Shown: positions 2,199 through 58,392, counted from the stretch's first letter. The stretch: 64,000 bases of DNA from Alphaproteobacteria bacterium (GCA_045118155.1 JBGUXS010000078.1:443-64442); one strand, 5' to 3'. A program made the numbers and translations. The notes: generated by a model from the letters alone, not told the origin.

Positions 2199-3341
2199 AT
2201 GCAGAAAAAACGCACCTTTATTATTGGACTTATTTGGGGGCTAATCTTCTTTTGGTGGCTGCACAATTTTTTTTACTTGAATTGGTATTTTCGGTTTTAC
2301 AGTCCCAAAGCTTGGGTTTATTTACTTCATGAATTCAAGTACGGTTGGCGGGTACGGGCCGTTTCCGATTGGATCTTTATTTTTACCCTTATTTTCGCAT
2401 TACCTCTGTTTTTCTGGGGGTGGTATCTATGCTTAAAAATCAAATGGTTGGCTCTTTTTAAATGGATAAAAAAACAATTTTTAAAACTTACCAACAAAAA
2501 ATCAACTGTTGTAAAAAAACAAATGAAGTTAGCCGCTAAAAAAAGTGTGCAAAAAGAACGCCCCCCTGCCCTTGCAACCCCCAAAGTAACTAGTCCCGAA
2601 AAGAAAATGCAAAAAATGCCATCTTCTGCCATCAAAAAAGAAGAAATCGATTTAGATTTTTCTGCTAAAGAAGAATTTTTGAAAGAAGAAAACATTCAAA
2701 CGGCACCTCCTGCCAAAGAACATCGGGCCCCGGATCCACCAAAAGGGGGACCTTCTTTCCTATTTGAAGATGATGATATCCCGCAACAAAACAATGATGT
2801 TCGGGCCGACACACTGTTGTCTGAAATAAAAATGCCAGAACGAGAACGAACACAAGAAAATATCCCAGATATTATTCACGCGCATGGCTTTAAGCCCATC
2901 ACGGCCATTGTGCATCCAGATATTTCTTTTGCGGCCGTTTCTTCAGATACCCTTTTGGTTGCTTTTGTGGATGAAGAACCAGGAGATTGGCTAGCCGATG
3001 AAGAAGATTTTGAAGGGGAAGACCCCTTGTGGTTTTCAGAAAGTTTTCATCGGGTTTCCCCAGTTTTTAAACTATTAAAAGTTGCTAAAAAAATCAGGGC
3101 TCAGTTAGAAAATCAAGGACTTTCTCATAAAGTAATTCCTTACTTAATTGAAAAAATGGGAAATATTATTAACGTAGAAGATATGCAAGAAACGTGGAAA
3201 GAACTGGGGGTCATTGTCTGCCGAACAGATGTTGGGGGGGATGAAACATTACCCACAGTAGAAGCTTCTTTCCCGCAAGCAAAAGATGTTGCAGAAGCTG
3301 CTGATTTAGATATAATAAAAGAAATTTTAAAAAAGTTATAG
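2199..3341 (+). CDS. hypothetical membrane-anchored protein: two N-terminal TM helices, a Lys-rich linker and a strongly acidic C-terminal domain; first gene of the coupling-protein operon
   Basis: TM helices FIIGLIWGLIFFWWL and WIFIFTLIFALPLFFWGWYL. KK-rich stretch from about residue 90 to 150. D/E-rich C-terminal half. Stop lies 9 nt before the next start, with the RBS AGGGGGAAAAG inside its 3' end. Confidence 0.6.
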   Translation: MQKKRTFIIGLIWGLIFFWWLHNFFYLNWYFRFYSPKAWVYLLHEFKYGWRVRAVSDWIFIFTLIFALPLFFWGWYLCLKIKWLALFKWIKKQFLKLTNKKSTVVKKQMKLAAKKSVQKERPPALATPKVTSPEKKMQKMPSSAIKKEEIDLDFSAKEEFLKEENIQTAPPAKEHRAPDPPKGGPSFLFEDDDIPQQNNDVRADTLLSEIKMPERERTQENIPDIIHAHGFKPITAIVHPDISFAAVSSDTLLVAFVDEEPGDWLADEEDFEGEDPLWFSESFHRVSPVFKLLKVAKKIRAQLENQGLSHKVIPYLIEKMGNIINVEDMQETWKELGVIVCRTDVGGDETLPTVEASFPQAKDVAEAADLDIIKEILKKL

Positions 3342-3350
3342 GGGGAAAAG

Positions 3351-5522
3351 TTGGGCGCCTCTGACGCGATGTACACCGAACGTAAAAAATATACGTACTA
3401 TGTGGCAGCTATCGTAGTACTGGCTCTTTTTGTATCTTGGATAATGCTGTTAATTACAATTCCTTTACAAGCTTTTATCCGTCAAGGGTTAGATATTGAA
3501 GCTTGGAATTACAGTGTTTCCTTTTGGACACATGCTTGGCATCCAAAAGTCATTTTTCAAGTCCTCAATAGTTGGTTTGATTCCCTAAAAACGTTAAAAA
3601 ATCCCCATTGGACTTTATATTTACCCTTTTTATCCTTTTTTATTGGCTTTATCGTTTTAGTGATAGGGCTAAAAAAGAATCCCTTTGAATACACACCAAA
3701 TATTTTTGGGAATGGACGTTTAGCCACTTATGCTGATGTCAAAAAAATGAAATTATTTACTGGGTTCTGCATCGTTTTGGGACGTTTTAAAGGCAAGTTA
3801 TTAAAAATGCCAGAAACCTTAGCGGCCTTAGTTGTTGCGCCACCGGGGACTGGTAAAACCGCTGGGGTGGTGATTCCCACCATTTTTGAATCCCCAGGAT
3901 TGAGTATTATTGTAAACGACCCTAAACCAGAATTATGTTATACCACAACCGGATATCGGGCACAACAAGGGCCTGTGTTCGTTATTAACTGGGGGGCCGA
4001 TGATGAACCAGAAAAAGGGATTTTCTTCCCTAGTTGGAATCCACTTTCTGCTTCATGCTTACCAGCACCAGGTCCCGCCAGAGATATGTACATAGACTCT
4101 ATGGTGGCTATTTTGGTAGAAGTTAATGAAAAAGATCCTCACTGGGGGAAAACTGGGCGAAATGCTATGTCTGGTTTTTTGAACTTTATCGCCAGTAAAT
4201 GTGAACGGGCACTTGCTAACGATTACTTTACTTCACGTTTAATGGACGATTTATTTGATGATGAAGACGCGGCCGTTTTAGAAACATACTATGCGGATAT
4301 GAACGATCCTGATACAGGGTCTGCTTTACAGGCATTAAAAAATGGGTCTATGACACGGGAATCTTACGTCCCTATCGGTACATGGGCGGGGCTACCTTCT
4401 GTTTGGCAAGGAAAAGAACCTTGTATTGCTATGATTTTGGACTGGCTGACGGAAATGCAAATGAAAATCAATGCCGATATTAAACGCCGTATGGATGAAG
4501 GGGATCAAATGGCGGCCATGGCAGACCCCATGCGGGATCTATTGGAAAGTGCCATCAGTGAAGCAGCCCGCTATGGCTATGCCAGACGTTCTGTCACAGA
4601 ACTCAATCAATTATCCGCCACACCGGATAAGGAACGGGGGTCTATTTTATCCACGGCCCTTTCTGGGATCAGTATTTTTAAAAACTCGGCAGTGCGTTCT
4701 AGAACTAAGTTCAGTGACATTACTTTCCGTGATTTACGTGGGATGCGTGATCCTATTACAGGGGAACAAAAACCTATTTCGGTTTATCTATCCGTTAACC
4801 AGGTAGATGCCCAAGCCTTAAATGTCATTACTGGGATTTTTGTTGAATTGATGAGCAGTTTCTTAATCGCGAACCCCCCAAATTTTGTTGGGGCAGGCGG
4901 GAAAAAGGCGGGACCATTTCCTGTTTTATTTGTGCTTGACGAGTTTCCACAAATGCCAAAATTGGATGCTGTGAAAAACGGGCCTGCCGTAGGGCGGGGA
5001 CAGAAAGTTTCTTATTTGCTCATTGGGCAGGATCTTGGACAGATTTCTGGTAAATACGGGAAAGATGATTTGGAAACAATCATTACAACAACAGCCGCTA
5101 AAGTCATTCTTTCTCAAAACAACGAACAAACCGCTGAACGTTTTACAAAAATGATTGGGACTAAAACGATTCAAGTAACAAGTTCTAGCCGAACTGAAGG
5201 GATTTCCAACCAAAATAACCCCTTTGCGGCAAACGTAAGCCGTTCCTACCAAAGCTCAAACGTGGTCCAAGTATCTGATATGATGAGCTTAGATATGCTT
5301 AAACAATACGTTTTATTCCAAGGATATCTAAACCATCCTATCTTAGCGGATGCCCCTCGTTATTACTTAGATAAAGTCATGCAAAAGAAAGCGGCCATTC
5401 CCCCTTCCCCATTTGTTCCGTATTGGATTGTAGCGCAACGGGAAGATACCGATTTAGAAACATTAAAAGCTTTGATGCAAGAGGAATTAGCAGATTTGGA
5501 TATTATCATAGAGGATGAATAA
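3351..5522 (+). CDS. virD4: type IV secretion coupling protein (VirD4/TraG/DotL family ATPase)
   Basis: Two N-terminal TM helices. Walker A VVAPPGTGKTAGVVIPT. Walker B VLFVLDEFPQMPKLD. NDPKPEL motif. Acidic C-terminal tail. TTG start at 3351; alternative ATG at 3369. Confidence 0.8.
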   Translation: MGASDAMYTERKKYTYYVAAIVVLALFVSWIMLLITIPLQAFIRQGLDIEAWNYSVSFWTHAWHPKVIFQVLNSWFDSLKTLKNPHWTLYLPFLSFFIGFIVLVIGLKKNPFEYTPNIFGNGRLATYADVKKMKLFTGFCIVLGRFKGKLLKMPETLAALVVAPPGTGKTAGVVIPTIFESPGLSIIVNDPKPELCYTTTGYRAQQGPVFVINWGADDEPEKGIFFPSWNPLSASCLPAPGPARDMYIDSMVAILVEVNEKDPHWGKTGRNAMSGFLNFIASKCERALANDYFTSRLMDDLFDDEDAAVLETYYADMNDPDTGSALQALKNGSMTRESYVPIGTWAGLPSVWQGKEPCIAMILDWLTEMQMKINADIKRRMDEGDQMAAMADPMRDLLESAISEAARYGYARRSVTELNQLSATPDKERGSILSTALSGISIFKNSAVRSRTKFSDITFRDLRGMRDPITGEQKPISVYLSVNQVDAQALNVITGIFVELMSSFLIANPPNFVGAGGKKAGPFPVLFVLDEFPQMPKLDAVKNGPAVGRGQKVSYLLIGQDLGQISGKYGKDDLETIITTTAAKVILSQNNEQTAERFTKMIGTKTIQVTSSSRTEGISNQNNPFAANVSRSYQSSNVVQVSDMMSLDMLKQYVLFQGYLNHPILADAPRYYLDKVMQKKAAIPPSPFVPYWIVAQREDTDLETLKALMQEELADLDIIIEDE

Positions 5523-6064
5523 TGACGGAAGATTTTAAGTTTGAAGATGGTCTAGGACAGGATTATTGGATTCGTGAATTTCATAAAATTCCCTTTCCAG
5601 GAATGGAATTGTTTGAAGTAACTTTTTTTAGACGTATAGAAGGGGCCTATGTGGATAAACATCAGCGCTTTAGAGAAATGGCCGTTGATTTTCTAAAAGA
5701 TTTAGGGAAAGAGGAAGAAGAACTTTATGCTTTTGAATTTTCTGAGGCCGAAGTCGCTTTGATTAAAAAAGGTCGTCTACCAGAAAATTATACTGTCCAT
5801 TTAAAATATCCTTTAGAATACGGTTGTGCATTGATCCCAGAACAATTTGTTTTGATGCCTATTGCCCCTTATTATCGGGATATTAATACTTATATCTTCA
5901 GACAACTTATAACCGATGAAGGAATTAAAAAGCCCCATCACCTTTATGTTCCCACACCAACAGGGCGTATTTATAAACCTTATTCTGGGGATGCAAGTGG
6001 CAGCGGTGGGAAAAGTAATACTTCCCAAATGGCGGCTATGTTTAACCAGGGGCGGGGGCGTTAA
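5522..6064 (+). CDS. hypothetical 180-aa protein with a Gly/Ser-rich basic C-terminus (...SGDASGSGGKSNTSQMAAMFNQGRGR), translationally coupled to virD4 (TAATG)
   Basis: Stop/start overlap with the T4CP gene. No recognisable motifs. Net-positive C-terminal tail. Confidence 0.55.
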   Translation: MTEDFKFEDGLGQDYWIREFHKIPFPGMELFEVTFFRRIEGAYVDKHQRFREMAVDFLKDLGKEEEELYAFEFSEAEVALIKKGRLPENYTVHLKYPLEYGCALIPEQFVLMPIAPYYRDINTYIFRQLITDEGIKKPHHLYVPTPTGRIYKPYSGDASGSGGKSNTSQMAAMFNQGRGR

Positions 6065-6065
6065 T

Positions 6066-6524
6066 ATGAAATTAATACATGTTGTTTTAAAAGCTATTTA
6101 TAAAGATGCCGCTGTTGTTTTTAATCCTGTGGCTTTGACTGATGTTCAAAAGGCCTCTTTTGAAATTGTAAAAAATAAAGGGATTAAAATTCCTAATGAT
6201 TATGCTGCCTTTTTAACAGAAGTTGATGGATTATCCTGGAATGGATTGTATCTTTTTTCCTTAAATGAAAAGGAACGTCAAGATGGCGCTTTTGTGCACC
6301 CTGGCATTCTACAAACATACCATAAGGGCTTAAAAAATCCGATTTTTAAAAACAGGCTTTTATTAGGATACGGCCCTGAAGAAATCATTACATATCATGC
6401 GGGAAAAAAAGAATATCAAATCCTAAGTCAATATGATTACAGAATCCTAGTACGGCTTCCCCGCTTCTTTGATGTACTGTATCACTATACCCATGCTTTA
6501 TTTGAGGATGCCCCTAAGGACTAG
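6066..6524 (+). CDS. SUKH/Smi1-Knr4-like protein (immunity-protein fold), 152 aa
   Basis: IPNDYAAFLTEVDGLSWNGLYLFSL ... LLLGYGPEEIITYH resembles the SMI1/KNR4 (SUKH-1) signature. ATG at 6066 sits 1 nt after the previous stop. The track ORF 5916-6524 is an over-extension into the previous gene. Confidence 0.5.
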   Translation: MKLIHVVLKAIYKDAAVVFNPVALTDVQKASFEIVKNKGIKIPNDYAAFLTEVDGLSWNGLYLFSLNEKERQDGAFVHPGILQTYHKGLKNPIFKNRLLLGYGPEEIITYHAGKKEYQILSQYDYRILVRLPRFFDVLYHYTHALFEDAPKD

Positions 6525-27459: not shown

Positions 27460-27758
27460 TGCCACCATTTTTAAGCCCTGATGAAGATTCGTGTCTTTTA
27501 CACATTTTATTGGTTCCTAATGCTAAAGAAAATAAGATTTATGGTCTTTTTAATGAACGATTAAAACTTTATATTTCTGCCCCAGCTGTGGACGGAAAAG
27601 CGAATAAAGCTTTAATTAAATACCTGGCTGATCTCTTTAACCTAAAAAAAAATCAGATTTCCTTGATACAAGGGGAAAGATCCCATCAAAAAACAGTACG
27701 ACTAGATGCCCCTATTGACCACATCTGTACTTGTTTAAGTCAACATATTTCCGTGTAA
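27456..27758 (+). CDS. DUF167 (YggU) family protein
   Basis: LKLYISAPAVDGKANKALIKYLADLF... Confidence 0.7.
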   Translation: MMPPFLSPDEDSCLLHILLVPNAKENKIYGLFNERLKLYISAPAVDGKANKALIKYLADLFNLKKNQISLIQGERSHQKTVRLDAPIDHICTCLSQHISV

Positions 27759-28805
27759 AATACGTGTAATCTCGCTTCCTTGCATCAAAGAAAAACCTAA
27801 GGCTTGGGCTTGTTGTATTTCTTGAGGGGTTTGAATATCAAACAAGATAATTTTTTCTTTAGGATAATTCAAAGTAGCAGCCCATTTCATCTGTTGACTA
27901 TTAATCTTTAGGTAATGCATCGGGATTTTATCCCATGCTAAATAGGATATTTCCTCCGGAATGCGTAATAAAAAGAGGGATTGTTGATAACAAGGTATTT
28001 TTTGAATACTTTGCCATAAATCCCGTTCCCAAAGAAAATCTGATAAACTTATTTCATAAGAAATACCTTGATGTTGATACAATTGGTGCATTTCCTGATA
28101 AACGGGTTGGGTTAAAAGATAAGGACTCGCAGAAAAAACTCCTCCTTGTGTTTTGGGCAATTCCTTTTTTAAAATTTTTGTATACAGCGCATTCTTAAAG
28201 GCCCTTTTCAAATATGTATCAGAATCCAATATCACCTTTGGAAATAGAACTTGACGGACATCAATATCTTTACAAAAAACACTGGTAAATACAGGAACCA
28301 TCTCGGTTAAATCATGAACCTGACAAATGCATTGATGCCGTGTTAAATGTGAAACATCCGCTGTTTTTAGCTCTGATAAAATATGTGTGAGAGTTGGGGT
28401 ATCCAAGGGCAATGAAGGAATTTTTTGAAGCACTTTTAAATCAGAAAAATCTGCTGTTGGGGTTAGCTCTTGATGATTAATTTTATGGATCAAAGCATTA
28501 AAATCTGTGATTAAATTAAAAAATGATAATTTATGTTCTTGGAAAAAGGATTTTTCCAGCCCCTTTAATTTCAAGGAAAGCAACATCATATCCTGTAATT
28601 TATTATGGGCAAAAAAGGCAACGCTATCCCCTTCGCTTAAAAAGAACAATTTCGTTTGATATGTCTGTTCAAAAGAACTCAAAAAATGCAAAAGAACCTT
28701 TTTTTTCTCATCTTCTTTAGGTAAAGGAATATAAAGAGCATGCCCTTTAAATGTTCTTTTTTCAAGATATTTGAGATAGTCAAAAACACTATTATACCGC
28801 ATCAT
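27735..28805 (-). CDS. hypothetical protein with a degenerate EAL-like C-terminal domain
   Basis: C-terminal ...YLKINSQQM...KIILFDIQTPQEIQQAQALGFSLMQG mirrors the EAL end (KID...EGVE...GCD..QG) but lacks the catalytic residues. Confidence 0.5.
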   Translation of the reverse strand: MMRYNSVFDYLKYLEKRTFKGHALYIPLPKEDEKKKVLLHFLSSFEQTYQTKLFFLSEGDSVAFFAHNKLQDMMLLSLKLKGLEKSFFQEHKLSFFNLITDFNALIHKINHQELTPTADFSDLKVLQKIPSLPLDTPTLTHILSELKTADVSHLTRHQCICQVHDLTEMVPVFTSVFCKDIDVRQVLFPKVILDSDTYLKRAFKNALYTKILKKELPKTQGGVFSASPYLLTQPVYQEMHQLYQHQGISYEISLSDFLWERDLWQSIQKIPCYQQSLFLLRIPEEISYLAWDKIPMHYLKINSQQMKWAATLNYPKEKIILFDIQTPQEIQQAQALGFSLMQGSEITRILHGNMLT

Positions 28806-29874
28806 ATCCCCTTAAATGTTGCACACACACGCATTGTGATGCTTGATGCGGGATCGCCCCCATTTGCATACACGTTTGTAAAGCACAATCTCCCCCATAT
28901 GGACACGTTTTTTTTCGAGAAGCCGCATGAATCAAATCAATAAAATCACCTTGAAAAAAGGTATATGGGGAAGACAGAATTTGAGTTAATTTTTCTTGCG
29001 TATCCACTCCTGTTACAAAAACAGGAACATGATTGATTGATTGTGTTAAACAAACTTCTACGGGAAGAAGTAAAAAATCAGCTTCTAATAAATCAAAACG
29101 ATAAAAGGCCGTTTCTGCAGTAATGCCCCCAATACCTAACCGATACTGTTTTCCTGGACGAGTTAGGGCTTCCTTATACAGATTTTTATTTAACAAGACT
29201 TCTGCAATATCTAAAATAATCCAAACTGGGTCATTATTTTCAATCCAAGCACTTTCCAACGTTCCTTGCACCATCAAAGGCAATGTCGTTTGTTTAAACA
29301 GCTCTTTATTTGGGTGTTGCAATAATTGTTTCTGTATTTTCTGAACTAACCACATTGGAAGCTGATCCATATTGTTTTTTAAGGTCCATGTATATCCCCA
29401 CAGAGAGTTGCTCCCCTTTTGATAAATTACCCGCCTAAACCAACTATTTTTTTCGGGAATATCTTTTAAAAAAGCCTCATAATCAACCTCTTGATTCGTT
29501 TGCTTTTTAGCTATCTGAATCAGGGACAAAACCCCCATCAAATCCTGTGGTAAATGGAACAAGCGTACATTTTCTTCTTTTTTTCCTGTTTGAATTTGAA
29601 AAAATGTTTGAATTTGGCGCATCACATCCACAACTTGATGTTCATCAAGATCAACCCCTATTAATAAACGATCTTGTTGTTCAAATGTAAAAAGCCGACA
29701 ATATTCATACGCTAATAACGGTTCTAATAAATGTTCTATGACGTGCATCAACCTTTCGGCCCCTGGCAGACCTAATAATTGACTTGTCCCTATCCAAAGG
29801 ACAACCGACGGTGTTTCTAAAGCAGCGACACGCTTTATTGTTTCTAAGGCCAGTTGTTCTTGTGTCTCATACAT
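28792..29874 (-). CDS. hypothetical protein with a degenerate EAL-like domain and a Cys-rich C-terminal tail
   Basis: YRLGIGGITAETAFYRFDLLEADFLLLPVEV...VPVFVTGVDTQEKL...FQGDF parallels the EAL DDFGTG...KIDRSF...EGVET...QGY layout. Tail TCPYGGDCALQTCMQMG...QCVCVQH. Confidence 0.5.
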   Translation of the reverse strand: MYETQEQLALETIKRVAALETPSVVLWIGTSQLLGLPGAERLMHVIEHLLEPLLAYEYCRLFTFEQQDRLLIGVDLDEHQVVDVMRQIQTFFQIQTGKKEENVRLFHLPQDLMGVLSLIQIAKKQTNQEVDYEAFLKDIPEKNSWFRRVIYQKGSNSLWGYTWTLKNNMDQLPMWLVQKIQKQLLQHPNKELFKQTTLPLMVQGTLESAWIENNDPVWIILDIAEVLLNKNLYKEALTRPGKQYRLGIGGITAETAFYRFDLLEADFLLLPVEVCLTQSINHVPVFVTGVDTQEKLTQILSSPYTFFQGDFIDLIHAASRKKTCPYGGDCALQTCMQMGAIPHQASQCVCVQHLRGYDAV

Positions 29875-29980: not shown

Positions 29981-31951
29981 ATGCATTACTTAACAGGGGA
30001 AGAAGTTTCTGTCACATCCTTAAAAACAATAGCCCAAGAATTTGGTTTTATGTTGTGGCCGCACCCCGATGATCCTTTCTTATTGCATAAAACACCCTAT
30101 CAAAGTTTTCCAGAAATGCTTTCTGTCCTTACAGATCATATTACAGAAAAAAAACTTAATTCCCTCTTCACTTTCCCTGTTTCTTTCATCTTAGATGCGA
30201 ATGCACAATCTGAATCCTTACATAACTTCTTTAAATATCAAGCCCGTAACCAATTGGATAAAACCATCGGTGTCTTGCTAACTTGCCCCGTTATTTACGC
30301 CTGTGATGTTGCGCAAATTTTTACCGAAGCCTTACATCAACGATTACACTTTCCTAGCACACGTTACAGTAATATTCATATGGCTATTCATGAAGCGCTC
30401 GTCAATGGTTTAGTGCATGGAAATCTAAAACTACCTAGTTCTTTACGGCAATCAGCTCGTGATTTCGTTGATTACGCCCGCATTGTTAATGAACGCTTAT
30501 TAGACCCTGCCTATGCTAATAAATCCATCAGTATTTGGGCTACTTGGAATACCTCTAGATTGGAAATTAAGATTCGGGACGAAGGGGCTGGATATACGGT
30601 TTTACCCCCCCATAAAAAACATGTGGCAGAAAAACGTTCTGGACGGGGGCTTTATCTAATTGCCGGAACTGCTGATTCCTGCACAATTGATGATTTTGGG
30701 CGAGAAATCACATTATCTTTTATTCTAAATAATCTAAACAACGAACAAGATATCGGGGTTTCTGAAAATGCGGCTTTACTGCATGATCCTGTAACCGATT
30801 TTTCGGATTGTCGTATTTTAATCATTGAAGATAACCCCAGTAATCAAATCTTGGTTTCACAACTTTTAAACGTGGTTGGAATTGGTCATATTGAAACAGC
30901 TCAAGATGGGGTTGAAGGCCTTGAAAAAGCATTCAGTATGAAACCAGACTTAGTCATTTTGGACATCACTATGCCCCGAATGAATGGATATGAAGTACTT
31001 CACCAACTCAGAACAAATCAAGATACGGCCTCTATCCCGGTTTTAATTCAAACGGCTTCTGATACACGGGCAGCACGGGATAAAACTTTTAGTGCGGGGG
31101 CAACAGACTTTATCACAAAGCCATTAAATCCTTTGGAATTTTTCTCTCGGATACGGGTACACTTAGAAAATAGATTACTTGTAAAACATCTTGAAACGAA
31201 ACTCGCTCAAATCAATGAAGAACTAGAACTTGCCCAAAAAATGCAAGAAAGTTTATTACCCCCCACGGAAGCACTTCAAGATATCAGCCAACGTTATCAT
31301 CTAGATATTTCTTATACGTTCTTACCTTCTTCCCATTTAGGGGGGGATTTCTGGCAAATTTTTCCATTGGCTAAAGATAAGGTCGCTTTTTATATTTGCG
31401 ATTTTTCGGGACATGGGGTAAGTGCTGCCATGAATACGTTCCGATTACACACCTTAATCGGGCAAATGGATATGACGGCATTGAAAAAGCCTTCCGAATT
31501 TCTTTTTATGCTTAATAATTCTTTGGTCAACTTGTTGCCCAGGGGACAATTTGCTACTTTCTTCTTTGGTATTTTAAACAAGCGACAAGGAACATTAACA
31601 TATGCTGGGGCCAGTTCGCCCTTCCCTATTTTGGTTAAGGACAACAAACCCTCTTTCTTAGATACTTCCGGGATGCCTTTGGGAATTTTAAAGGACGTTA
31701 CTTATAAAGATAAAAAGGTACCATTTTCCAAAGAAATGGGCATTTTACTATACAGTGACTCTTTCACTGAACAACAAAATAAAGAAGGAAATCGCCTTGA
31801 TTATGATGGTTTTATGAAAATGACTCAGACGTGTTTCTCAGAAAAAACATCTCAACAAGTCATTGCCCAAATCATGCAAAAATTTCATGAATTTTCTGAC
31901 ACCCCTAGTACCGATGATATTACGGCTGTCTATTTGAAAGGCCTCTTATGA
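29981..31951 (+). CDS. multidomain signalling protein: RsbW-like HATPase_c_2 kinase domain, receiver (REC) domain and PP2C/SpoIIE phosphatase
   Basis: N-box IHEALVNGLVHGN, G-boxes IRDEGAGY and GRGLYLIAG. REC domain ILIIEDNP...DLVILDITMP...ITKP. PP2C domain GGDFW...ICDFSGHGVSAAM...DDITAV. Confidence 0.75.
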   Translation: MHYLTGEEVSVTSLKTIAQEFGFMLWPHPDDPFLLHKTPYQSFPEMLSVLTDHITEKKLNSLFTFPVSFILDANAQSESLHNFFKYQARNQLDKTIGVLLTCPVIYACDVAQIFTEALHQRLHFPSTRYSNIHMAIHEALVNGLVHGNLKLPSSLRQSARDFVDYARIVNERLLDPAYANKSISIWATWNTSRLEIKIRDEGAGYTVLPPHKKHVAEKRSGRGLYLIAGTADSCTIDDFGREITLSFILNNLNNEQDIGVSENAALLHDPVTDFSDCRILIIEDNPSNQILVSQLLNVVGIGHIETAQDGVEGLEKAFSMKPDLVILDITMPRMNGYEVLHQLRTNQDTASIPVLIQTASDTRAARDKTFSAGATDFITKPLNPLEFFSRIRVHLENRLLVKHLETKLAQINEELELAQKMQESLLPPTEALQDISQRYHLDISYTFLPSSHLGGDFWQIFPLAKDKVAFYICDFSGHGVSAAMNTFRLHTLIGQMDMTALKKPSEFLFMLNNSLVNLLPRGQFATFFFGILNKRQGTLTYAGASSPFPILVKDNKPSFLDTSGMPLGILKDVTYKDKKVPFSKEMGILLYSDSFTEQQNKEGNRLDYDGFMKMTQTCFSEKTSQQVIAQIMQKFHEFSDTPSTDDITAVYLKGLL

Positions 31952-53388: not shown

Positions 53389-53412
53389 TAAATGCCCCTC
53401 CTAGAAGTCTTT

Positions 53413-53441
53413 TTTATACATTTTTTCCGTTTAAAAGTCAA
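53413..53441 (-). promoter_or_regulatory. gatCAB promoter: TTGACT (53441-53436), 17 nt, TATAAA (53418-53413)
   Basis: Minus-strand sequence aaaaaaacTTGACTtttaaacggaaaaaatgTATAAAaaagacttctAGGAGGGGcatttaATG. Confidence 0.55.
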
Positions 53442-53517
53442 GTTTTTTTCATAAAAGCATTTTCTGCCTTTACTTTTCATCTCTTTTTGATTATGCTTGT
53501 TTCTACAAGGGGGTAAT

Positions 53518-53805
53518 ATGCGGGAACCTATTTTAAAAGCGGTCAGTATGCCGGCGCGTATTTTATGGGCGCCGTCGGTTCCGGCGTTGTTAAACATGGT
53601 TTGTCAATTACCTTTCATGTTGTTCTATGCGGGACAAGGGGGCAACCCTTTGCTATTCATGGGAACTATCATCGGGGTTCATGCCTTAATTGCTCTTTAT
53701 GCCGCGAAAGAACCTCATTTATCTAATATGTTCAAAGCCCAAGGTCCTTTCTTTAAGAAAAGTTCACAAATGTATACCTCATCAGGAAGAAAATACGCCC
53801 CATGA
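53518..53805 (+). CDS. virB3: type IV secretion system protein VirB3 (TrbD-like)
   Basis: Two TM helices. ILKAVSMPARILWAPSVPALLNMV...LLFMGTIIGVHALIALYAAKEPHL matches the VirB3 family. RBS AAGGGGG. ATGA overlap with virB4. Confidence 0.75.
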   Translation: MREPILKAVSMPARILWAPSVPALLNMVCQLPFMLFYAGQGGNPLLFMGTIIGVHALIALYAAKEPHLSNMFKAQGPFFKKSSQMYTSSGRKYAP

Positions 53806-56237
53806 ATCAAACAGATGTTTTCGCCCTTATTTTACAAAATGCTTCCTCTACGGGGTTACTTATTGCCTTGTTAGGAGTATTAGCACTTGTTTTTGTCATG
53901 GTTGTATTTGTGACCTCCTTAGGAAATATGTTACTTCCCAAACCAAAAGAAACCCTTGTTTCTGATTTTCTTCCTTTTTCAAGGCTAGACCCAGATGGTG
54001 CCACCATTTACATGCGTAATGGTACTTTGGCTCGTGTTTTTGAATTAACAGGAACGGATACCACTTTAGCAAGTGATATTGAACGTAAAGCCTTAATGGA
54101 AAAACGGCAACAATGGATTGATTCACTAAGTGAATTAGAAATTATTTGCAGGGTTATTACGATTCGTGAAAAAATTCCTTTAGCCGAAGAAACACTACAT
54201 CCAGATAATCCTTTGCTCAATAAAGTGTCAGAACTTTGGTTGAACAGTTTACACCGTATTTTCAGAAACAAACATTACCTAATTCTTTCCGTTAATGATC
54301 GTAAGGATGCCATTAATGATTTAATTCAGGCAACAAATGCGACTCTTTCTATTTTAGATGTTTATCATCCTATTCTTATTTCTGAAAAAACCCCAGATAA
54401 ACATCAAGACAAAAGCCCCTTTTGGGTTTTTTCACAACTTGTCAGCCCCGTATCAAACCCCAAACCCATTGTAGGCTTTGAAAAAGGGGAAGAACTTAAT
54501 TCCTTTTTAACGTCTGACTATATCCACTTCACAAAAGATGAAGGGATTATCCGTTTCTTTTCTGGGGATAGGGAAAAATTAGCCATTTGTATCGGTATTC
54601 GTAAGCCTGGGGATTTCATGGATGAACAAATGGTTGCCCGTATTTTAGGAATTGATTGTGAAGTTGTTATTACACACAATATCCATGCTATTCCAAAAGC
54701 AAAAGGAAACCTGTTAATGATTCAACAACGCCGTATGGCTTACTTAACAAGTTTTTCTGAAAGTGTACGTTCCCAATATAATACCGCCATGCAATTAATG
54801 GATCCTTCTGATATTAATTCACAAACCCTTAATGAATATTCTATGTCTATTATGGTTTATGGGGAATCTAAGGAAGAACTTGTTTTTGGACAACAGGAAG
54901 TTGAAAAAATATGCCGACTTTACGGGGTGACCCCTGTGCGAGAAGGTTGGATTACTCAAGCTGTTTTCTTTTCTCAAATTCCCTCTTATGAAGTATATCC
55001 ACGTACATACTTGTATTTATCGCGGGTAGTGGCGTGTTCCATTTGCATGGATAAAACAACTGAAGGCCGGCAAAAATCTGATTGGGGGCCTGTGCCTATT
55101 TCTTACTTCCGGACTATTACGGGGACCCCTTACGCTTTCCAATTTCATGTAACAGAAGAACCCTATGCTGTGGCACATACAGCCCTTATTGGTCCAACGG
55201 GACAAGGGAAAACAACCTTATTTTCATTTTTAGCAGGCCAATCTTCCCGTATTCCAGATTTACGGACTTATTTCTTTGACCGTAACAATGGGGCCAAAGT
55301 TTTTGCTTTATTACAAGGGGCTCCTTATGTGCGGTTTGATGGGGGGGACAATGCTGTTGCCTTAAATCCTTTCTTTATGCCAGATTCCCCTGAAAACAGG
55401 GCATTTTTACGATCTTGGTTACGCTCTATTACTGGCTGTACAGATGCTTTTTCCGAAGAAGAAATTGCCCGAGCCGTTACAACAGCTTATGACTATTTAA
55501 AACCAGAAGAACGTCTTTTGAAGAACTTGTATAAAAGCTCTTTTTCCTTAAACGGAGATATGCGCCGTGAACTAAAACGTTGGGTCAGTGATGATCAATA
55601 TGGTCGGATCTTTAATGCCGAAGAAGATAAATTAGATATTGATAACCGCTATACTGGTTTTGATTTTACGCATATTTTCCAAGATGGGACGTTGGCTCCT
55701 GCTGTCATCAGTTATATCATGTACCGCATTCATGAATTAGCTAGTTTAAAAGGGACCCCCTCGTTAGTGATGATTGATGAAACGGCCCCTATGTTAGAAC
55801 ATCCTATGTTCCGAGACAATTTCATTGTAGGCCTTCGGGAAGGACGAAAGAAACGACAAGCATTCTTATGTGCTTTCCAGCAACCTCGCTTTTTAGATGA
55901 AAACGGTTTAGGGGATGTGATTCGTGGCCAATGTCAAACCATTATTTTCTTTAGAAATTTACAGGCAACCCCCGCGGATTATGAATCTTGGAATTTAACC
56001 CCAAGTGAACTAAACTTTATTCTAGGAAAAGAATTTATTGATCATAAATACGCCATCCTTGTCAAACGGCCCGCTGTTAATGAATCTGTTATCTTAGATA
56101 TTAATTTGGGGGGATTAGGTCCCTACTTAAAAATTTATTCTTCTGGGAATAAAAATGTGGCCTTAGTTGAACGTCTTAGTCATGAACTAAAATATGCTAA
56201 AGATATCCTACAACAATATCTACAGTTATCTGATTAG
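53802..56237 (+). CDS. virB4: type IV secretion system ATPase VirB4 (TrbE-like), 811 aa
   Basis: Walker A LIGPTGQGKTT. Walker B SLVMIDETAPML. N-terminal TM helix. CagE/TrbE/VirB4 architecture. Confidence 0.88.
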   Translation: MNQTDVFALILQNASSTGLLIALLGVLALVFVMVVFVTSLGNMLLPKPKETLVSDFLPFSRLDPDGATIYMRNGTLARVFELTGTDTTLASDIERKALMEKRQQWIDSLSELEIICRVITIREKIPLAEETLHPDNPLLNKVSELWLNSLHRIFRNKHYLILSVNDRKDAINDLIQATNATLSILDVYHPILISEKTPDKHQDKSPFWVFSQLVSPVSNPKPIVGFEKGEELNSFLTSDYIHFTKDEGIIRFFSGDREKLAICIGIRKPGDFMDEQMVARILGIDCEVVITHNIHAIPKAKGNLLMIQQRRMAYLTSFSESVRSQYNTAMQLMDPSDINSQTLNEYSMSIMVYGESKEELVFGQQEVEKICRLYGVTPVREGWITQAVFFSQIPSYEVYPRTYLYLSRVVACSICMDKTTEGRQKSDWGPVPISYFRTITGTPYAFQFHVTEEPYAVAHTALIGPTGQGKTTLFSFLAGQSSRIPDLRTYFFDRNNGAKVFALLQGAPYVRFDGGDNAVALNPFFMPDSPENRAFLRSWLRSITGCTDAFSEEEIARAVTTAYDYLKPEERLLKNLYKSSFSLNGDMRRELKRWVSDDQYGRIFNAEEDKLDIDNRYTGFDFTHIFQDGTLAPAVISYIMYRIHELASLKGTPSLVMIDETAPMLEHPMFRDNFIVGLREGRKKRQAFLCAFQQPRFLDENGLGDVIRGQCQTIIFFRNLQATPADYESWNLTPSELNFILGKEFIDHKYAILVKRPAVNESVILDINLGGLGPYLKIYSSGNKNVALVERLSHELKYAKDILQQYLQLSD

Positions 56238-57226: not shown

Positions 57227-57322
57227 GAAAAAAAGTAAAAAAGCGTTTTTTTTAAATTTTAATCACATTTTATGCTTGCTTTTCCCACAAAAAAAAGGTT
57301 GAATGATGCGCAGAGGAGAATT

Positions 57323-58063
57323 ATGAAAAAAATACTGTTGTGTCTTGGTCTTATACTATCTCTTCCCCTGGGGGCAGAGGAGTTGTTTTGGACATTTGAT
57401 AACACGGGAAAAGAATCCCCTGTTCCCCCTGATTGTGATGGGGTTTTTAACGAGGAATTAGGACGTTTTGTTTTGCCAACCCCAGAAGAATTATATACGG
57501 CGGGGAATGCCTATTTCTTTAAAAGGGAAGATGAACAACGTAACGCAGGGTATTGTTTTGTGGCGGCTGCCTTACAGGGGCATTTGAACGCTCAGTACAC
57601 ACTCGCTCAGCTTTACAGCAAGGGGATGGTTTTGCCTAAGGATGATTTAGCCGCCTATAAATGGGCTTTTATTGCGGGGTTGCAAGGACATAAAGCCGCT
57701 GAACGACTAGCGGTTTCTTTGGAACAATATCTAACAACTGAAGACATCATGAAGGCCACAGATGAAGCTCAGGAATTTTTAAAAACGTTGCCGACGAAAA
57801 CACAACAAACATTGGCGGGATTAGATGCTGAATTAGAAAGTAAGCAGGCCTATCTTGATCAAATTTATGCTGATATTGATAACGAATTGAACATTACTTT
57901 ACCCGAAGTTAAAATAGATGATTCTTTAAATCCTATTTTCCCGGATGAAGAAGAAACAGTGATTTCCAAAAAAGTCCCTACCGAAAAAAAAGCTGCAAAA
58001 ACAAAACGGGAATCTGTTTTAAAGCCTCTTGATAACATCTTTACTCAAAAAGATCGGCCATGA
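57323..58063 (+). CDS. secreted Sel1-repeat (TPR-like) protein
   Basis: Signal peptide MKKILLCLGLILSLPLGA. Sel1-like repeats GNAYFF...AQLYSKGMVLPKDDLAAYKWAFIAGLQGH. The track start 57272 is over-extended. Confidence 0.7.
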   Translation: MKKILLCLGLILSLPLGAEELFWTFDNTGKESPVPPDCDGVFNEELGRFVLPTPEELYTAGNAYFFKREDEQRNAGYCFVAAALQGHLNAQYTLAQLYSKGMVLPKDDLAAYKWAFIAGLQGHKAAERLAVSLEQYLTTEDIMKATDEAQEFLKTLPTKTQQTLAGLDAELESKQAYLDQIYADIDNELNITLPEVKIDDSLNPIFPDEEETVISKKVPTEKKAAKTKRESVLKPLDNIFTQKDRP

Positions 58064-58392
58064 AGCGTTTTTTATTTACCTTATGTTTTTTTGTGCTTTC
58101 AAACGTATATGCTGATTTTTTACCTTTCACACAAGATATCCCTTTAATGCCCAATTTAGTTCTTCAAGAAGATTATTTATCTTTTGATACTCCCTCGGGG
58201 CAAATACTTAATTTATCGGCTAAAACACCCCTTCCTTGTCAAAAAGTTTTTGATTTTTATTCCCAGACTTTACCCGCGTTGGGGTGGCAAGAAGAAAAAA
58301 AAGGATTTTTTAAAAGAAATGAAGATACTTTGTCCCTTTCCTGCAAAGCATCAACGGTCACTTTTGAAATAACATTTGAAAATCCTTCTTAA
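58060..58392 (+). CDS. small secreted hypothetical protein (110 aa, 2 Cys)
   Basis: Signal peptide MKRFLFTLCFFVLSNVYA. ATGA-coupled to the Sel1 gene. Confidence 0.5.
   Translation: MKRFLFTLCFFVLSNVYADFLPFTQDIPLMPNLVLQEDYLSFDTPSGQILNLSAKTPLPCQKVFDFYSQTLPALGWQEEKKGFFKRNEDTLSLSCKASTVTFEITFENPS

What the first reader, a model, noticed from the sequence alone, without database searches (positions are those of the whole stretch)
53518..56237. Isolated virB3-virB4 pair between gatCAB and rpmG-rpoZ-acpS, with an N-terminal TM helix on VirB4
Only the inner-membrane ATPase module of a type IV system is present here. It is flanked on both sides by convergent housekeeping operons and overlaps acpS tail-to-tail by 4 nt. 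Scattered T4SS genes are characteristic of Rickettsiales-like genomes, but there virB3-virB4 is normally followed by virB6 paralogues, which are absent here. VirB4 itself begins with a predicted TM segment (LLIALLGVLALVFVMVVFV) even though a separate VirB3 exists.
Basis: partly seen in the sequence, partly recalled or inferred. Interest (0 to 1): 0.5.

Follow-up and report, generated by a model that had tools for sequence, protein, structure and literature searches.

The report
Lone virB3-virB4 islet of scattered T4SS
This is an intact, strongly conserved VirB3-VirB4 gene pair, the inner-membrane motor of a type IV secretion system, and its partner genes lie scattered elsewhere on the chromosome of an uncultured gut alphaproteobacterium, much as in Rickettsia but in a lineage where I found no published description of it.

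Summary
A 95-aa VirB3 (53518-53805) is translationally coupled (ATGA) to an 811-aa VirB4 (53802-56237). The pair lies between gatCAB and acpS-rpoZ-rpmG, and virB4 overlaps acpS tail-to-tail by 4 nt. One correction: gatCAB is divergent from virB3 (head-to-head), not convergent.

The pair is not a relic. Walker A and B motifs are intact here and in 24/24 relatives. A sister strain shows 27 nucleotide differences in virB4 and no amino-acid change. The pair is kept in 24 species-level MAGs of a gut/rumen alphaproteobacterial clade (VirB4 59-86% identical).

It is not alone either. The same window carries a VirD4 coupling-protein module (2199-6524). In some relatives virB2 sits directly upstream of virB3, and one has tandem VirB6-like paralogues near virD4. 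Sister lineages and related gut MAGs have virB7-B8-B9 next to virB4, a lone virB11, or a virB8-B9-B10-B11 island.

The N-terminal TM helix of VirB4 is a subfamily trait. All 24 relatives have it, as do the closest plasmid VirB4s, which also have a separate VirB3, and 94/123 database representatives.

Best reading: the motor islet of a vertically inherited, dispersed P-type T4SS. The full inventory in this particular genome was not shown.

The parts
53389..53517 (.). 129-bp region between divergent gatC and virB3, containing the virB3 ribosome-binding site (AAGGGGG, 53507-53513). Presumed promoter region.
   Evidence: Read directly from the sequence. The consensus scan found no sigma-70-like site in this region, so the promoter is inferred, not shown.
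53518..53805 (+). virB3: a 95-aa inner-membrane protein with two hydrophobic segments (about residues 19-38 and 44-62) and basic N- and C-terminal tails. Predicted as a hairpin with both ends in the cytoplasm.
   Evidence: phmmer hit to the NCBI-annotated VirB3 of Microvirga pMVF16-3, E=1.9e-7. 12 of 19 aligned sequences (17 clade orthologues plus two plasmid VirB3s) hit Pfam VirB3 PF05101, best E=3.7e-5; the window copy itself does not. Conserved start motif M-x-E-P-I-L-K-A-V-A-M-P-P-R and K-E-P-H-L-S motif. Always immediately upstream of virB4 in the 24 relatives. No nucleotide difference from strain L025.
53802..56237 (+). virB4: an 811-aa T4SS ATPase. Its start overlaps the virB3 stop (ATGA), which suggests translational coupling.
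   Evidence: TIGR00929 E=7.5e-112, PF03135 E=5e-12. R388 TrwK E=4e-33. Foldseek top 14 hits are TrwK chains. 27 nucleotide differences from strain L025 with no amino-acid change. GC and GC3 typical of the window.
53856..53912 (+). N-terminal transmembrane anchor of VirB4 (residues 19-37), followed by the conserved LPKPKET...DFLPF motif (53934-53978). Predicted N-terminus out, ATPase in the cytoplasm.
   Evidence: Hydropathy 2.4. AF2 helix over residues 17-44. Conserved in 24/24 relatives, in the Microvirga and Erythrobacter plasmid VirB4s, and in 94/123 representatives. The orientation is inferred from the lysines after the helix and from the need for a cytoplasmic ATPase.
55191..55214 (+). 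Walker A motif (GPTGQGKT, residues 464-471).
   Evidence: Present in 24/24 relatives and invariant in alignment A2.
55764..55781 (+). Walker B motif (LVMIDE, residues 655-660). It aligns with the DE of TrwK.
   Evidence: Present in 24/24 relatives.
56234..56237 (.). 4-nt convergent overlap between the virB4 stop (TAG, 56235-56237) and the acpS stop (TAA on the minus strand, 56234-56236).
   Evidence: No terminator-like site lies between the two genes. The junction is specific to this species: downstream neighbours differ in all 24 relatives.
2199..3341 (+). 380-aa membrane protein of unknown family, the first gene of the conserved virD4 module.
   Evidence: Homologues lie directly upstream of VirD4 in L031 (E=2e-43) and L032 (E=1e-75). 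No Pfam, NCBIfam or PDB match.
3351..5522 (+). virD4: a 723-aa type IV coupling protein with two N-terminal TM segments, Walker A at 3840-3860 and Walker B at 4929-4946. It is the second T4SS islet in the window.
   Evidence: PF02534 E=3e-54, TraG-D_C E=1e-22. Its closest plasmid relatives are the same two plasmids as for VirB4 (E=1e-98 and 1e-108). 61-79% identity across the clade.
5522..6064 (+). 180-aa ORF of unknown function, conserved downstream of virD4.
   Evidence: Homologues follow VirD4 in L031 and L032 (E=1e-20 to 1e-30) and the ORF is called in L037/L038. No family or PDB match. AF2 failed, pLDDT 39.
6066..6524 (+). 152-aa ORF weakly matching SUKH/SMI1-KNR4 (YrhA family). Possibly an immunity-type or adaptor protein.
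   Evidence: NCBIfam NF038335 E=7e-13 (48.7 bits, below the cutoff of 55). Pfam SUKH_6 E=0.0065. Conserved after VirD4 in L031 and L032.

Best explanation
The pair encodes the inner-membrane motor of a chromosomal, vertically inherited P-type (VirB/D4-like, MPF-T) type IV secretion system. The genes of that system have been dispersed among housekeeping genes.

Shown:
- VirB3 and VirB4 are intact, under strong purifying selection, and always adjacent.
- A VirD4 coupling protein of the same plasmid-related ancestry lies in the same window.
- Other members of the clade have virB2 upstream of virB3 and tandem VirB6-like paralogues near virD4.
- Sister lineages have virB7-virB8-virB9 downstream of virB4 or a lone virB11. 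Related gut MAGs, whose membership of the clade is inferred, have a virB8-B9-B10-B11 island.

Inferred from established knowledge of VirB4 (R388 cryo-EM structures; Agrobacterium genetics, cited in PMC4027160):
- Translational coupling yields VirB3 and VirB4 in matched amounts.
- The VirB3 hairpin and the VirB4 N-terminal helix anchor a VirB4 hexamer at the cytoplasmic face of the inner membrane.
- VirB4 docks VirB6 and VirB8, extracts VirB2 pilin from the membrane, and together with VirB11 and VirD4 powers substrate transfer through a VirB7/9/10 outer-membrane complex encoded elsewhere.

The cargo is unknown. I favour secreted proteins (effectors or toxins aimed at eukaryotic or bacterial cells) over plasmid-style conjugation, because no relaxase was found and the genes sit at chromosomal housekeeping sites in every lineage examined.
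For: Identity and integrity.

Purifying selection: 27 nucleotide differences against 0 amino-acid changes in virB4 and none in virB3 versus strain L025, while flanking genes differ by 0.3-1.4%. VirB4 is 62-73% identical across the 24 related loci, comparable with GatA (66-72%) at the same loci.

Long residence: composition matches the window, and gatCAB lies next to virB3 in 9 relatives and about 6 kb away in a tenth.

Same machine, dispersed:
- VirD4 is in the window and its best plasmid matches are the same Microvirga and Erythrobacter plasmids as for VirB4.
- VirB4 and VirD4 accession numbers lie about 700-1000 apart in two cases, suggesting the same MAG, and three contig lengths coincide.
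- virB2 is upstream of virB3 in L010, L011, L013 and L014.
- L031 has three tandem VirB6/TrbL-like paralogues near virD4.
- Sister lineage L034 has virB3-virB4-virB7-virB8-virB9 between lon and an aspartate kinase gene. Sister lineage L033 has the pair alone plus a lone virB11.
- L035/L036 carry a virB8-virB9-1138aa-virB10-virB11 island with a TrbL gene nearby.

Diderm envelope genes in the window (BamA, Skp, LpxA/D, an outer-membrane efflux protein) mean an outer-membrane T4SS complex would be needed.
Against: The remaining T4SS genes (virB2, B6, B8-B11) were not shown for this genome. None lies in the 64-kb window or in about 9 kb of extensions.

The VirB8-11 island (L035/L036) could not be tied to a VirB4-bearing contig or MAG of the clade. 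The tie rests on sampling depth and rate arguments.

The other VirB11 groups found (group A, P0424, L043) may belong to sister lineages. TruB of L043 is only 37% identical to the window's, against 53% for an in-clade locus.

The window's VirB3 fails the Pfam model on its own. VirB4 scores below NCBIfam's curated cutoff, 375 against 643 bits.

No expression or functional data exist.
Confidence: 0.8

Rival explanations
1. Orphan or moonlighting module. VirB3-VirB4, perhaps with VirD4, works without a complete envelope-spanning T4SS in this genome. It might act as a minimal inner-membrane translocase, or together with another surface machine such as the type IVb-pilus-like system that sits next to virB2-B3-B4 in some relatives.
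For: No VirB6/8/9/10/11 in the window or its extensions. A secretin/TcpQ/PilO/T2SSE cluster lies head-to-head with virB2-virB3-virB4 in L010-L014. The window carries a 603-aa type-IV-pilin-like protein. The link between the VirB8-11 island and this clade is only inferred.
Against: VirB2 and VirB6 paralogues occur within the clade, VirB7/8/9 and VirB11 in sister lineages, and a VirB8-11 island in related gut MAGs. Only about 74 kb of this genome was seen; a related contig reaches 1.95 Mb. To my knowledge no VirB4 has been shown to work without VirB6/VirB8.
Confidence: 0.1
2. Decaying remnant of an integrated conjugative element or plasmid, no longer functional.
For: The closest non-clade relatives are contiguous plasmid T4SS operons with a MobA/MobL relaxase. 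Only fragments of such an operon are present here.
Against: Intact ORFs and catalytic motifs in 24/24 relatives. 27 nucleotide differences with no amino-acid change. 59-86% identity maintained across species whose GC ranges from 31 to 51%. Host-like composition. No integrase, relaxase or repeats at the locus.
Confidence: 0.03
3. The dispersed T4SS is real, but it transfers or takes up DNA (conjugation, DNA release, or ComB-like competence) rather than secreting protein effectors.
For: Ancestry among conjugative plasmid systems. VirD4 matches DNA-transfer coupling-protein families. The giant VirB10 of L035 scores slightly better against the ComB10 model than the VirB10 model. From my own knowledge, the Helicobacter ComB system is likewise split into comB2-B3-B4 and comB6-B10 operons.
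Against: phmmer with the two plasmid relaxases found no relaxase in the window or any locus searched. From my own knowledge, ComB systems lack VirD4 and VirB11, whereas VirD4 is present in this clade and VirB11 in related lineages. The neighbourhood hints point to protein cargo: a SUKH-like ORF after VirD4, a 1051-1069-aa M23-peptidase protein beside VirB6 in L035/L036, and an ankyrin-repeat protein in L033. All of these are weak.
Confidence: 0.15

Closest known systems
Rickettsiales vir homologue (rvh) T4SS 'archipelago', islet A (virB3-virB4a-virB6a-e)
   Same: A chromosomal P-type T4SS split into islets among housekeeping genes. A 95-aa VirB3 sits directly upstream of VirB4. Multicopy, enlarged VirB6-like proteins occur in at least one clade member (L031). 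The host is an alphaproteobacterium. (PMC2653234; PMC10002696.)
   Different: virB6 does not follow virB4 here. virD4 is separate from virB8-virB11. virB11 stands alone in several related lineages. No VirB4, VirB8 or VirB9 duplication was seen. The closest sequence relatives are alphaproteobacterial plasmid systems, not a recognised rvh set. VirB8 of sister lineage L034 matches Bartonella VirB8 structures (E about 1e-7) and returns no other match at E<=0.01 apart from a weak TrwG hit. The organism is an extracellular-habitat gut/rumen MAG lineage. Relatedness to rvh could not be tested, because no Rickettsiales sequences were available.
Contiguous VirB/D4-type (MPF-T) operons on alphaproteobacterial plasmids (Microvirga sp. 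VF16 pMVF16-3; Erythrobacter aureus YH-07 plasmid)
   Same: These are the best sequence matches outside the uncultured lineages for VirB4 (39% and 35%), VirD4 and VirB3. They share a separate VirB3, the N-terminal hydrophobic segment on VirB4 and the LPxPxET..DF(L/M)PF motif.
   Different: The plasmids carry virB2-B3-B4-...-B11-virD4 as one operon next to a MobA/MobL relaxase. Here the genes are dispersed on a chromosome and no relaxase was found.
R388 TrwM/TrwK (VirB3/VirB4) of the solved T4SS inner-membrane complex
   Same: The only solved homologue found by sequence (E=4e-33, residues 201-770) and the top fold match. It is the structural template for how VirB3 and VirB4 work together.
   Different: About 17-19% identity in the structural alignments. 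The sequence alignment to TrwK starts only at query residue 201, so the first 200 residues, including the TM helix, have no sequence match to TrwK.
TrbD/TrbE of IncP/Ti Trb systems
   Same: A VirB4-family ATPase with N-terminal membrane segments alongside a separate VirB3 homologue (my own knowledge). The Pfam family name VirB4_TrbE_N points the same way.
   Different: TrbE models score far lower than VirB4 models: 86-107 bits against 149-375 bits.
Helicobacter pylori ComB competence T4SS (comB2-B3-B4 and comB6-B10 operons)
   Same: VirB2-B3-B4 homologues are encoded apart from the VirB6-B10 homologues (my own knowledge). Relatives L010-L014 have exactly a virB2-virB3-virB4 trio.
   Different: ComB has no VirD4 or VirB11, whereas VirD4 is present in this clade and VirB11 in related lineages. 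There is no specific sequence affinity for VirB4.
Xanthomonadales bacteria-killing X-T4SS
   Same: A chromosomal VirB/D4 system delivering toxins that have immunity partners. Peptidase_M23 and peptidoglycan-binding domains are the search criteria used for its effectors (PMC9352585). Here there is a SUKH-like ORF after VirD4 and an M23 giant protein beside VirB6 in L035.
   Different: No XVIPCD-type effector or extended VirB7 was looked for or found. The hints are weak and partly come from other genomes.

Membership tests
VirB4/TrbE/CagE T4SS ATPase | N-terminal VirB4 domain (Pfam PF03135) and overall match to the VirB4_CagE model | tested here: met
   PF03135 E=5e-12, 46.6 bits against a cutoff of 21. 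TIGR00929 E=7.5e-112 over residues 169-806, but 375 bits is below NCBIfam's curated 643-bit cutoff, so this is a divergent member.
VirB4/TrbE/CagE T4SS ATPase | C-terminal RecA-like ATPase with Walker A and Walker B motifs | tested here: met
   GPTGQGKT (464-471) and LVMIDE (655-660), conserved in 24/24 relatives and aligned to TrwK.
VirB4/TrbE/CagE T4SS ATPase | Fold like solved VirB4 | tested here: met
   AF2 model with mean pLDDT 61. Foldseek top 14 hits are R388 TrwK chains (E=2.5e-23, probability 1.0), followed by Thermoanaerobacter VirB4. The global TM-score is only 0.34 because the model is of moderate quality.
VirB4/TrbE/CagE T4SS ATPase | Subclass: VirB4 (MPF-T) rather than TrbE or TraC | tested here: met
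   VirB4 equivalog models score 199 and 149 bits, TrbE models 86-107 bits, F-type TraC 39 bits. No tree was built.
VirB4/TrbE/CagE T4SS ATPase | ATP hydrolysis and hexamer assembly at the inner membrane | not testable with these tools
   Needs biochemistry or structural work.
VirB3 (PF05101) | Match to the family model | tested here: inconclusive
   The window protein gives no hit at E<=1. 12 of 19 aligned sequences (17 orthologues plus two plasmid VirB3s) hit PF05101, best E=3.7e-5. phmmer to the annotated Microvirga VirB3 gives E=1.9e-7. A profile search of the PDB found nothing.
VirB3 (PF05101) | Small protein (about 95-110 aa) with two transmembrane segments | tested here: met
   95 aa with hydrophobic stretches at about 19-38 and 44-62. 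Two TMDs are typical of VirB3 (PMC4027160).
VirB3 (PF05101) | Gene immediately upstream of, or fused to, virB4 | tested here: met
   ATGA overlap here, and adjacency in all 24 relatives and in L033 and L034.
VirB3 (PF05101) | Conserved N-terminal '(G/A/T)L(S/T)RP' motif | tested here: not met
   The corresponding stretch is A-V-(S/A)-M-P-(A/P)-R, so P/R residues are present but the published motif (PMC2653234) is not matched literally.
Rickettsiales rvh T4SS | virB3-virB4-virB6 paralogues contiguous (islet A) | tested here: not met
   virB4 is followed by acpS here and by unrelated genes in the relatives.
Rickettsiales rvh T4SS | Multicopy VirB6 | tested here: inconclusive
   Three tandem TrbL-like paralogues in clade member L031, 24-30% identical to one another. 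None in the window.
Rickettsiales rvh T4SS | Duplicated VirB4, VirB8 and VirB9; no VirB5 | not testable with these tools
   This needs a whole-genome inventory. Only one VirB4 type was seen among the top 120 homologues, and single virB8 and virB9 genes in L034 and L035.
Rickettsiales rvh T4SS | virB8-virB11 contiguous with virD4 (islet C) | tested here: not met
   virD4 sits in its own module with no neighbouring virB gene in the window or L032; in L031 its only T4SS neighbours are VirB6-like genes about 5 kb away. The island in L035 ends at virB11.
Conjugative MPF-T system (plasmid or ICE) | Relaxase and coupling protein together with a co-located T4SS operon on a mobile element | tested here: not met
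   phmmer with two relaxases found none in the window or the loci searched. The flanks are housekeeping genes and the composition is host-like.

The most novel reading that the evidence does not exclude
A widespread clade of uncultured human-gut and rumen Alphaproteobacteria has domesticated a plasmid-type VirB/D4 system into a vertically inherited, Rickettsia-style 'archipelago'. One of its VirB11 sequences occurs in more than 4000 sample blocks of the collection, including a 1.95-Mb contig. The islets are virB(2)-B3-B4, a virD4 module with a SUKH-like partner, multicopy VirB6, a 1544-aa VirB10, and in related lineages a lone virB11. The dispersal would have arisen independently of, or before, that of the Rickettsiales rvh system. 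The machine would deliver proteins into host, protist or rival bacterial cells. T4SS finders that require gene co-location, and current annotation ('hypothetical protein', 'TadA'), would miss it.
Probability: 0.5. Interest if true: 0.6.

Novelty: new member of a known kind. Interest (0 to 1): 0.4.

Why it matters
VirB4 is the universal marker of type IV secretion. Here it sits alone among translation and lipid-synthesis genes and is annotated as 'hypothetical protein' in public MAGs.

If the dispersed system is complete, a common but uncultured gut alphaproteobacterial lineage has a contact-dependent secretion machine that automated surveys probably overlook. From my own knowledge, such tools expect co-located genes.

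It would also be a second example, outside the Rickettsiales, of a T4SS broken into conserved islets. That bears on whether such dispersal marks domestication of conjugation machinery for host or competitor interaction. The rvh system has been called a Rickettsiales signature (PMC10002696).

Tried and rejected
- **Walking along the source contig.** Exact-sequence look-ups with the first and last complete ORFs of the window found nothing. P0121 (VirD4) gave only 6.6 kb more upstream, with no T4SS genes.
- **Tying by GC content.** The clade spans 31-51% GC, so GC is uninformative.
- **Tying by shared housekeeping genes.** L043 shares truB, rpsO and pnp with the window, but TruB is only 37% identical, so L043 is probably outside the clade.
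- **Metagenome scan for VirB11 loci.** The scan failed with a tool error and the cap was consumed.
- **VirB3 profile against the PDB.** No hit, even at E<=10.
- **VirB8 of L034 against the PDB, to probe rvh affinity.** Only Bartonella VirB8 and a weak TrwG hit.
- **AF2 of the 180-aa ORF after VirD4.** pLDDT 39, unusable, so no fold search was run. PDB sequence searches for the three VirD4-module ORFs found nothing.
- **Literature searches** for RF32 or gut Alphaproteobacteria together with T4SS returned nothing relevant.
- **Recent horizontal transfer** was considered and rejected: composition is host-like and gatCAB synteny is shared across species.
- **Promoter and terminator scan.** The counts did not exceed those in shuffled sequence.


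Full report
**1. What is at the coordinates**

The mechanical ORF list gives a plus-strand ORF at 53497-53805 and another at 53802-56237. The first has an ATG at 53518, preceded by AAGGGGG four nt upstream. From that start it encodes 95 aa, the same start as in all orthologues. Its stop overlaps the start of the 811-aa ORF as ATGA.

The 811-aa protein is a VirB4-family ATPase.
- It matches TIGR00929 at E=7.5e-112 and PF03135 at E=5e-12.
- VirB4 equivalog models score 199 and 149 bits, TrbE models 86-107 bits and F-type TraC 39 bits.
- R388 TrwK is the only solved homologue found by sequence (E=4e-33).
- An AF2 model built from a 24-sequence alignment (mean pLDDT 61) returns TrwK chains as its 14 best Foldseek hits, E=2.5e-23.
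- Walker A (GPTGQGKT, residues 464-471) and Walker B (LVMIDE, residues 655-660) are intact.

It is strongly hydrophobic, and AF2 draws one long helix over residues 17-44.

To the left lie gatC, gatA and gatB on the minus strand. To the right lie acpS, rpoZ and rpmG on the minus strand, followed by two unassigned ORFs and dnaE. The virB4 stop (56235-56237) and the acpS stop (56234-56236, minus strand) give a 4-nt convergent overlap.

One descriptive error in the finding: gatC and virB3 are divergent. They start 129 bp apart and point away from each other. They are not convergent.

**2. Is the small ORF VirB3?**

On its own it hits neither Pfam nor NCBIfam. The following evidence supports the assignment:
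- phmmer with the NCBI-annotated 'VirB3 family' protein of Microvirga plasmid pMVF16-3 finds it at E=1.9e-7, and finds its orthologues at down to 7.6e-12.
- 12 of 19 aligned sequences (17 clade orthologues plus two plasmid VirB3s) hit PF05101, best E=3.7e-5.
- It has the size of Rickettsia VirB3, 95 aa (PMC2653234).
- It has two hydrophobic segments, as is typical for VirB3 (PMC4027160).
- It sits directly upstream of virB4 in every genome examined.

The published (G/A/T)L(S/T)RP motif is not matched literally; the clade has AV(A/S)MP(P/A)R instead. I accept it as a divergent VirB3.

**3. Whose genome, and is the pair kept?**

The exact VirB4 protein occurs on five public contigs, among them a 234.6-kb ENA gut-metagenome contig with the same gene order. 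The top 120 database homologues (65-95% identity) are nearly all unnamed or labelled 'Alphaproteobacteria bacterium', two are labelled Lactobacillales, and where named they are called 'hypothetical protein'.

A scan of one genome per GTDB species returned 24 loci, from human-gut (Brazil, Hadza, Nepal and others), rumen and other gut MAGs. In all 24, virB3 and virB4 are adjacent. In 9 of them gatCAB lies directly next to virB3; in a tenth it is about 6 kb away. Downstream neighbours differ everywhere. They are mostly housekeeping genes, and occasionally large ORFs with no known domain.

Clade VirB4s are 59-86% identical to one another. All of them are 42-44% identical to the nearest sister lineage (L033), about 40% to L034, and 32-39% to the nearest plasmid proteins. 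Locus GC ranges from 31 to 51%. This is therefore an old, diverse clade.

**4. Functional or relic?**

Against strain L025, virB4 has 27 nucleotide differences and not one amino-acid change. virB3 has no differences. Flanking housekeeping genes differ by 0.3-1.4%. If roughly three quarters of random changes were non-synonymous, 27 silent changes out of 27 would be vanishingly unlikely by chance; this is my own estimate.

VirB4 is about as conserved across the related loci (62-73%) as GatA (66-72%). Walker motifs are present in 24/24 relatives. GC and GC3 of virB4 (0.385 and 0.296) lie within the window's spread of 0.395 +/- 0.027 and 0.328 +/- 0.032. The relic and recent-transfer readings are rejected.

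**5. The N-terminal TM helix**

All 24 relatives have the helix, followed by a conserved LPxPxET...DFLPF motif. The Microvirga and Erythrobacter plasmid VirB4s have the same features, and both also have a separate VirB3.

Among the 123 full-length representatives (50%-identity clusters) most similar to the query, 94 have a hydrophobic 19-mer within the first 80 residues. Of the 30 closest, 29 do. The collection's precomputed Pfam marks list PF27097 'VirB4_TrbE_N' for this protein, as a weak hit.

The helix is therefore a subfamily trait, not an anomaly. With lysines right after the helix and an ATPase that must be cytoplasmic, I infer an N-out, C-in anchor. For VirB3 I infer a hairpin with both basic tails in the cytoplasm. 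That gives three TM helices per VirB3-VirB4 unit. This topology is inferred, not tested.

**6. Is it really alone?**

Nearly all other ORFs of the window were scanned against Pfam. The only other T4SS gene is a VirD4 coupling protein at 3351-5522 (PF02534 E=3e-54, TraG-D_C E=1e-22).

VirD4's best plasmid matches are the same two plasmids as for VirB4 (E=1e-98 and 1e-108). It is conserved at 61-79% across the clade. It is embedded in a conserved four-gene module:
- a 380-aa membrane protein (2199-3341);
- VirD4 itself;
- a 180-aa ORF (5522-6064);
- a 152-aa ORF (6066-6524) that weakly matches SUKH/SMI1-KNR4 (YrhA family E=7e-13, SUKH_6 E=0.0065).

VirB4 and VirD4 have NCBI accession numbers about 700-1000 apart in two cases, which suggests the same MAG.

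No VirB2, B6, B8, B9, B10 or B11 is found in the window, nor in the 6.6 kb upstream (L037) or the 2.2 kb downstream (L025) of it.

**7. Where the other parts are in relatives**

The closest plasmid systems are ordinary contiguous operons: virB2-B3-B4-...-B7-B8-B9-B10-B11-virD4 next to a MobA/MobL relaxase.

Within the clade:
- L010, L011, L013 and L014 have a typical VirB2 pilin gene directly upstream of virB3.
- L031 has a TrbL/VirB6 protein of 714 aa followed by two more VirB6-like paralogues. The three are 24-30% identical to one another, polytopic, and lie 5 kb from virD4.

In sister lineages:
- L034 (VirB4 about 40% identical) has virB3-virB4-virB7(60 aa)-virB8-virB9 between lon and an aspartate kinase gene.
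- L033 (VirB4 about 44% identical, GC 28%) has the pair alone, a lone virB11 3 kb upstream, and an ankyrin-repeat protein.

A search with that VirB11 found two heavily sampled groups in 'Alphaproteobacteria bacterium' gut MAGs.
- Group B (P0501) is seen in more than 4000 sample blocks, including a 1.95-Mb contig. There virB11 closes an island: virB8, virB9, a 1138-aa ORF, a 1544-aa VirB10, then virB11. An 837-aa TrbL and a 1051-1069-aa Peptidase_M23 protein lie 7-10 kb away.
- In group A, in P0424 and in L043, virB11 stands alone beside lptF/G, as it does in L033.

I could not place any of these VirB11 loci on a contig or MAG that also carries a clade VirB4. L043 is probably outside the clade, because its TruB is 37% identical to the window's against 53% for an in-clade locus.

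That group B belongs to the VirB4 clade is an inference. It rests on equal sampling depth and on rates. L033 against the clade is 63% identical for VirB11 and 43% for VirB4. An in-clade VirB4 range of 59-86% therefore predicts roughly 73-91% for VirB11, and group B spans 86-100%. I put this at about 0.8.

**8. Explanation**

The most economical reading is as follows. A plasmid-type VirB/D4 system entered the chromosome of an ancestor of these lineages. It was kept by selection and broken into islets by rearrangement. The window shows two of them: virB3-virB4, and the virD4 module.

Two observations fit stepwise break-up. Different lineages show different degrees of dispersal (B2-B3-B4; B3-B4-B7-B8-B9; B3-B4 alone). 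And the islets recur near truB-rpsO-pnp in the window, L005, L033 and L043.

Mechanistically, the pair should supply the VirB4 hexamer that anchors the inner-membrane complex and drives pilin extraction and substrate transfer together with VirB11 and VirD4. This rests on general T4SS knowledge (PMC4027160; R388 structures).

The substrate is unknown. The absence of a relaxase and the housekeeping chromosomal context argue for protein secretion. The SUKH-like ORF after VirD4 and the M23-peptidase giant protein beside VirB6 hint at an antibacterial role; M23 was one of the search criteria used for bacteria-killing T4SS effectors in PMC9352585. The ankyrin-repeat protein in L033 hints at a eukaryotic target. 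None of these hints is strong.

**9. Comparison and novelty**

The system works like, and resembles in layout, the Rickettsiales rvh 'archipelago' (PMC2653234; hallmarks in PMC10002696). It fails the arrangement features that could be tested. virB6 does not follow virB4. virD4 is not joined to virB8-virB11. The duplication hallmarks could not be tested. I therefore do not file it as rvh.

By sequence it is a divergent member of the VirB4 (MPF-T) family whose nearest named relatives are alphaproteobacterial plasmid systems.

Literature searches found no description of a T4SS in this gut lineage. That library lacks much of the subscription literature, however.

For the finding as stated, this is a new member of a known kind, and the TM-helix point is ordinary. 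The wider picture is moderately interesting, but it has not been demonstrated for this particular genome. That picture is a prevalent gut clade with a conserved, dispersed T4SS that annotation pipelines label 'hypothetical protein' or 'TadA'.

Noticed in passing
window 2199-6524 (+): A conserved four-gene VirD4 module sits among housekeeping genes (lgt, DUF2062, rbfA), about 48 kb from virB3-virB4. It consists of a 380-aa membrane protein of no known family, VirD4 (3351-5522), a 180-aa ORF and a 152-aa ORF. The same four genes occur in L031, L032, L037 and L038.
   Followed up: yes
window 6066-6524 (+): The 152-aa ORF after VirD4 weakly matches SUKH/SMI1-KNR4 (NCBIfam YrhA family E=7e-13, below cutoff; Pfam SUKH_6 E=0.0065). 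From my own knowledge this superfamily often provides immunity proteins, so the 180-aa ORF before it could be a toxin or effector. AF2 of the 180-aa ORF failed (pLDDT 39).
   Followed up: partly
window 7699-9510 (-): A 603-aa protein with a type IV prepilin-like N-terminus (MKKAVKTQSG|SIMIEAIAVLGILAV, with Glu at +5) and a large C-terminal part of no known family. There is only a weak ComGG minor-pilin hit (E=0.0026).
   Followed up: partly
L010, L011, L013, L014 (about 9 kb upstream of virB2-virB3-virB4): In four relatives a type IVb-pilus-like cluster lies head-to-head with virB2-virB3-virB4. It contains a TcpQ-like protein, a secretin, PAP_PilO and a 574-aa T2SSE ATPase.
   Followed up: partly
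L035 and L036, 1-20969: An island of virB8, virB9 (563 aa), a 1138-aa ORF with no domain, a 1544-aa VirB10 (TrbI domain only at residues ~1230-1430) and virB11. On the other strand lie four no-domain ORFs, an HTH regulator, an 837-aa TrbL/VirB6 and a 1051-1069-aa Peptidase_M23 protein.
   Followed up: partly
L031 1-9868: Three tandem VirB6/TrbL-like paralogues (714, 540 and at least 474 aa, 24-30% identical). Four consecutive 350-371-aa ORFs lie upstream of VirD4; the two nearest match the window's 380-aa ORF.
   Followed up: partly
L033 6129-7094; L039/L040 10001-10966; L041 8204-9169; L043 10001-10966: A lone virB11 sits at the same place, beside lptF/G and a ~270-300-aa unknown ORF, in at least four lineages. 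T4SS islets also recur within about 10 kb of truB-rpsO-pnp: virD4 in the window, virB3-B4 in L005 and L033, and virB11 in L043.
   Followed up: partly
L033 346-1362 (-): A 338-aa ankyrin-repeat protein lies about 8 kb from virB3-virB4 in the low-GC (28%) sister lineage. One MAG of that lineage is labelled 'Rickettsiales bacterium' at NCBI (P0406).
   Followed up: no
L032 1-6800: T7-like prophage genes (head-tail connector, capsid, scaffold, nozzle-like) lie within about 2 kb of the VirD4 module in one relative.
   Followed up: no
L017 12461-17173; L024 12455-14419; L023 12452-14260; L014 12490-14478: Large ORFs (602-1570 aa) with no Pfam domain lie directly downstream of virB4 in four relatives. 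They do not cluster with one another.
   Followed up: partly
window 57272-58392 (+): Two overlapping ORFs between rpmG and dnaE: 263 aa with weak Sel1/TPR-like NCBIfam hits, and 110 aa with no family. Both are conserved in the sister strain.
   Followed up: partly
window 27735-29874 (-) and 29981-31951 (+): Two adjacent ORFs of 356 and 360 aa with no family lie head-to-head with a 656-aa HATPase_c_2 + response-regulator receiver + SpoIIE (PP2C phosphatase) protein.
   Followed up: no
public annotation: NCBI names the clade's VirB4 'hypothetical protein' and its VirB11 'Flp pilus assembly complex ATPase component TadA'. Two MAGs of the clade are labelled Lactobacillales.
   Followed up: no
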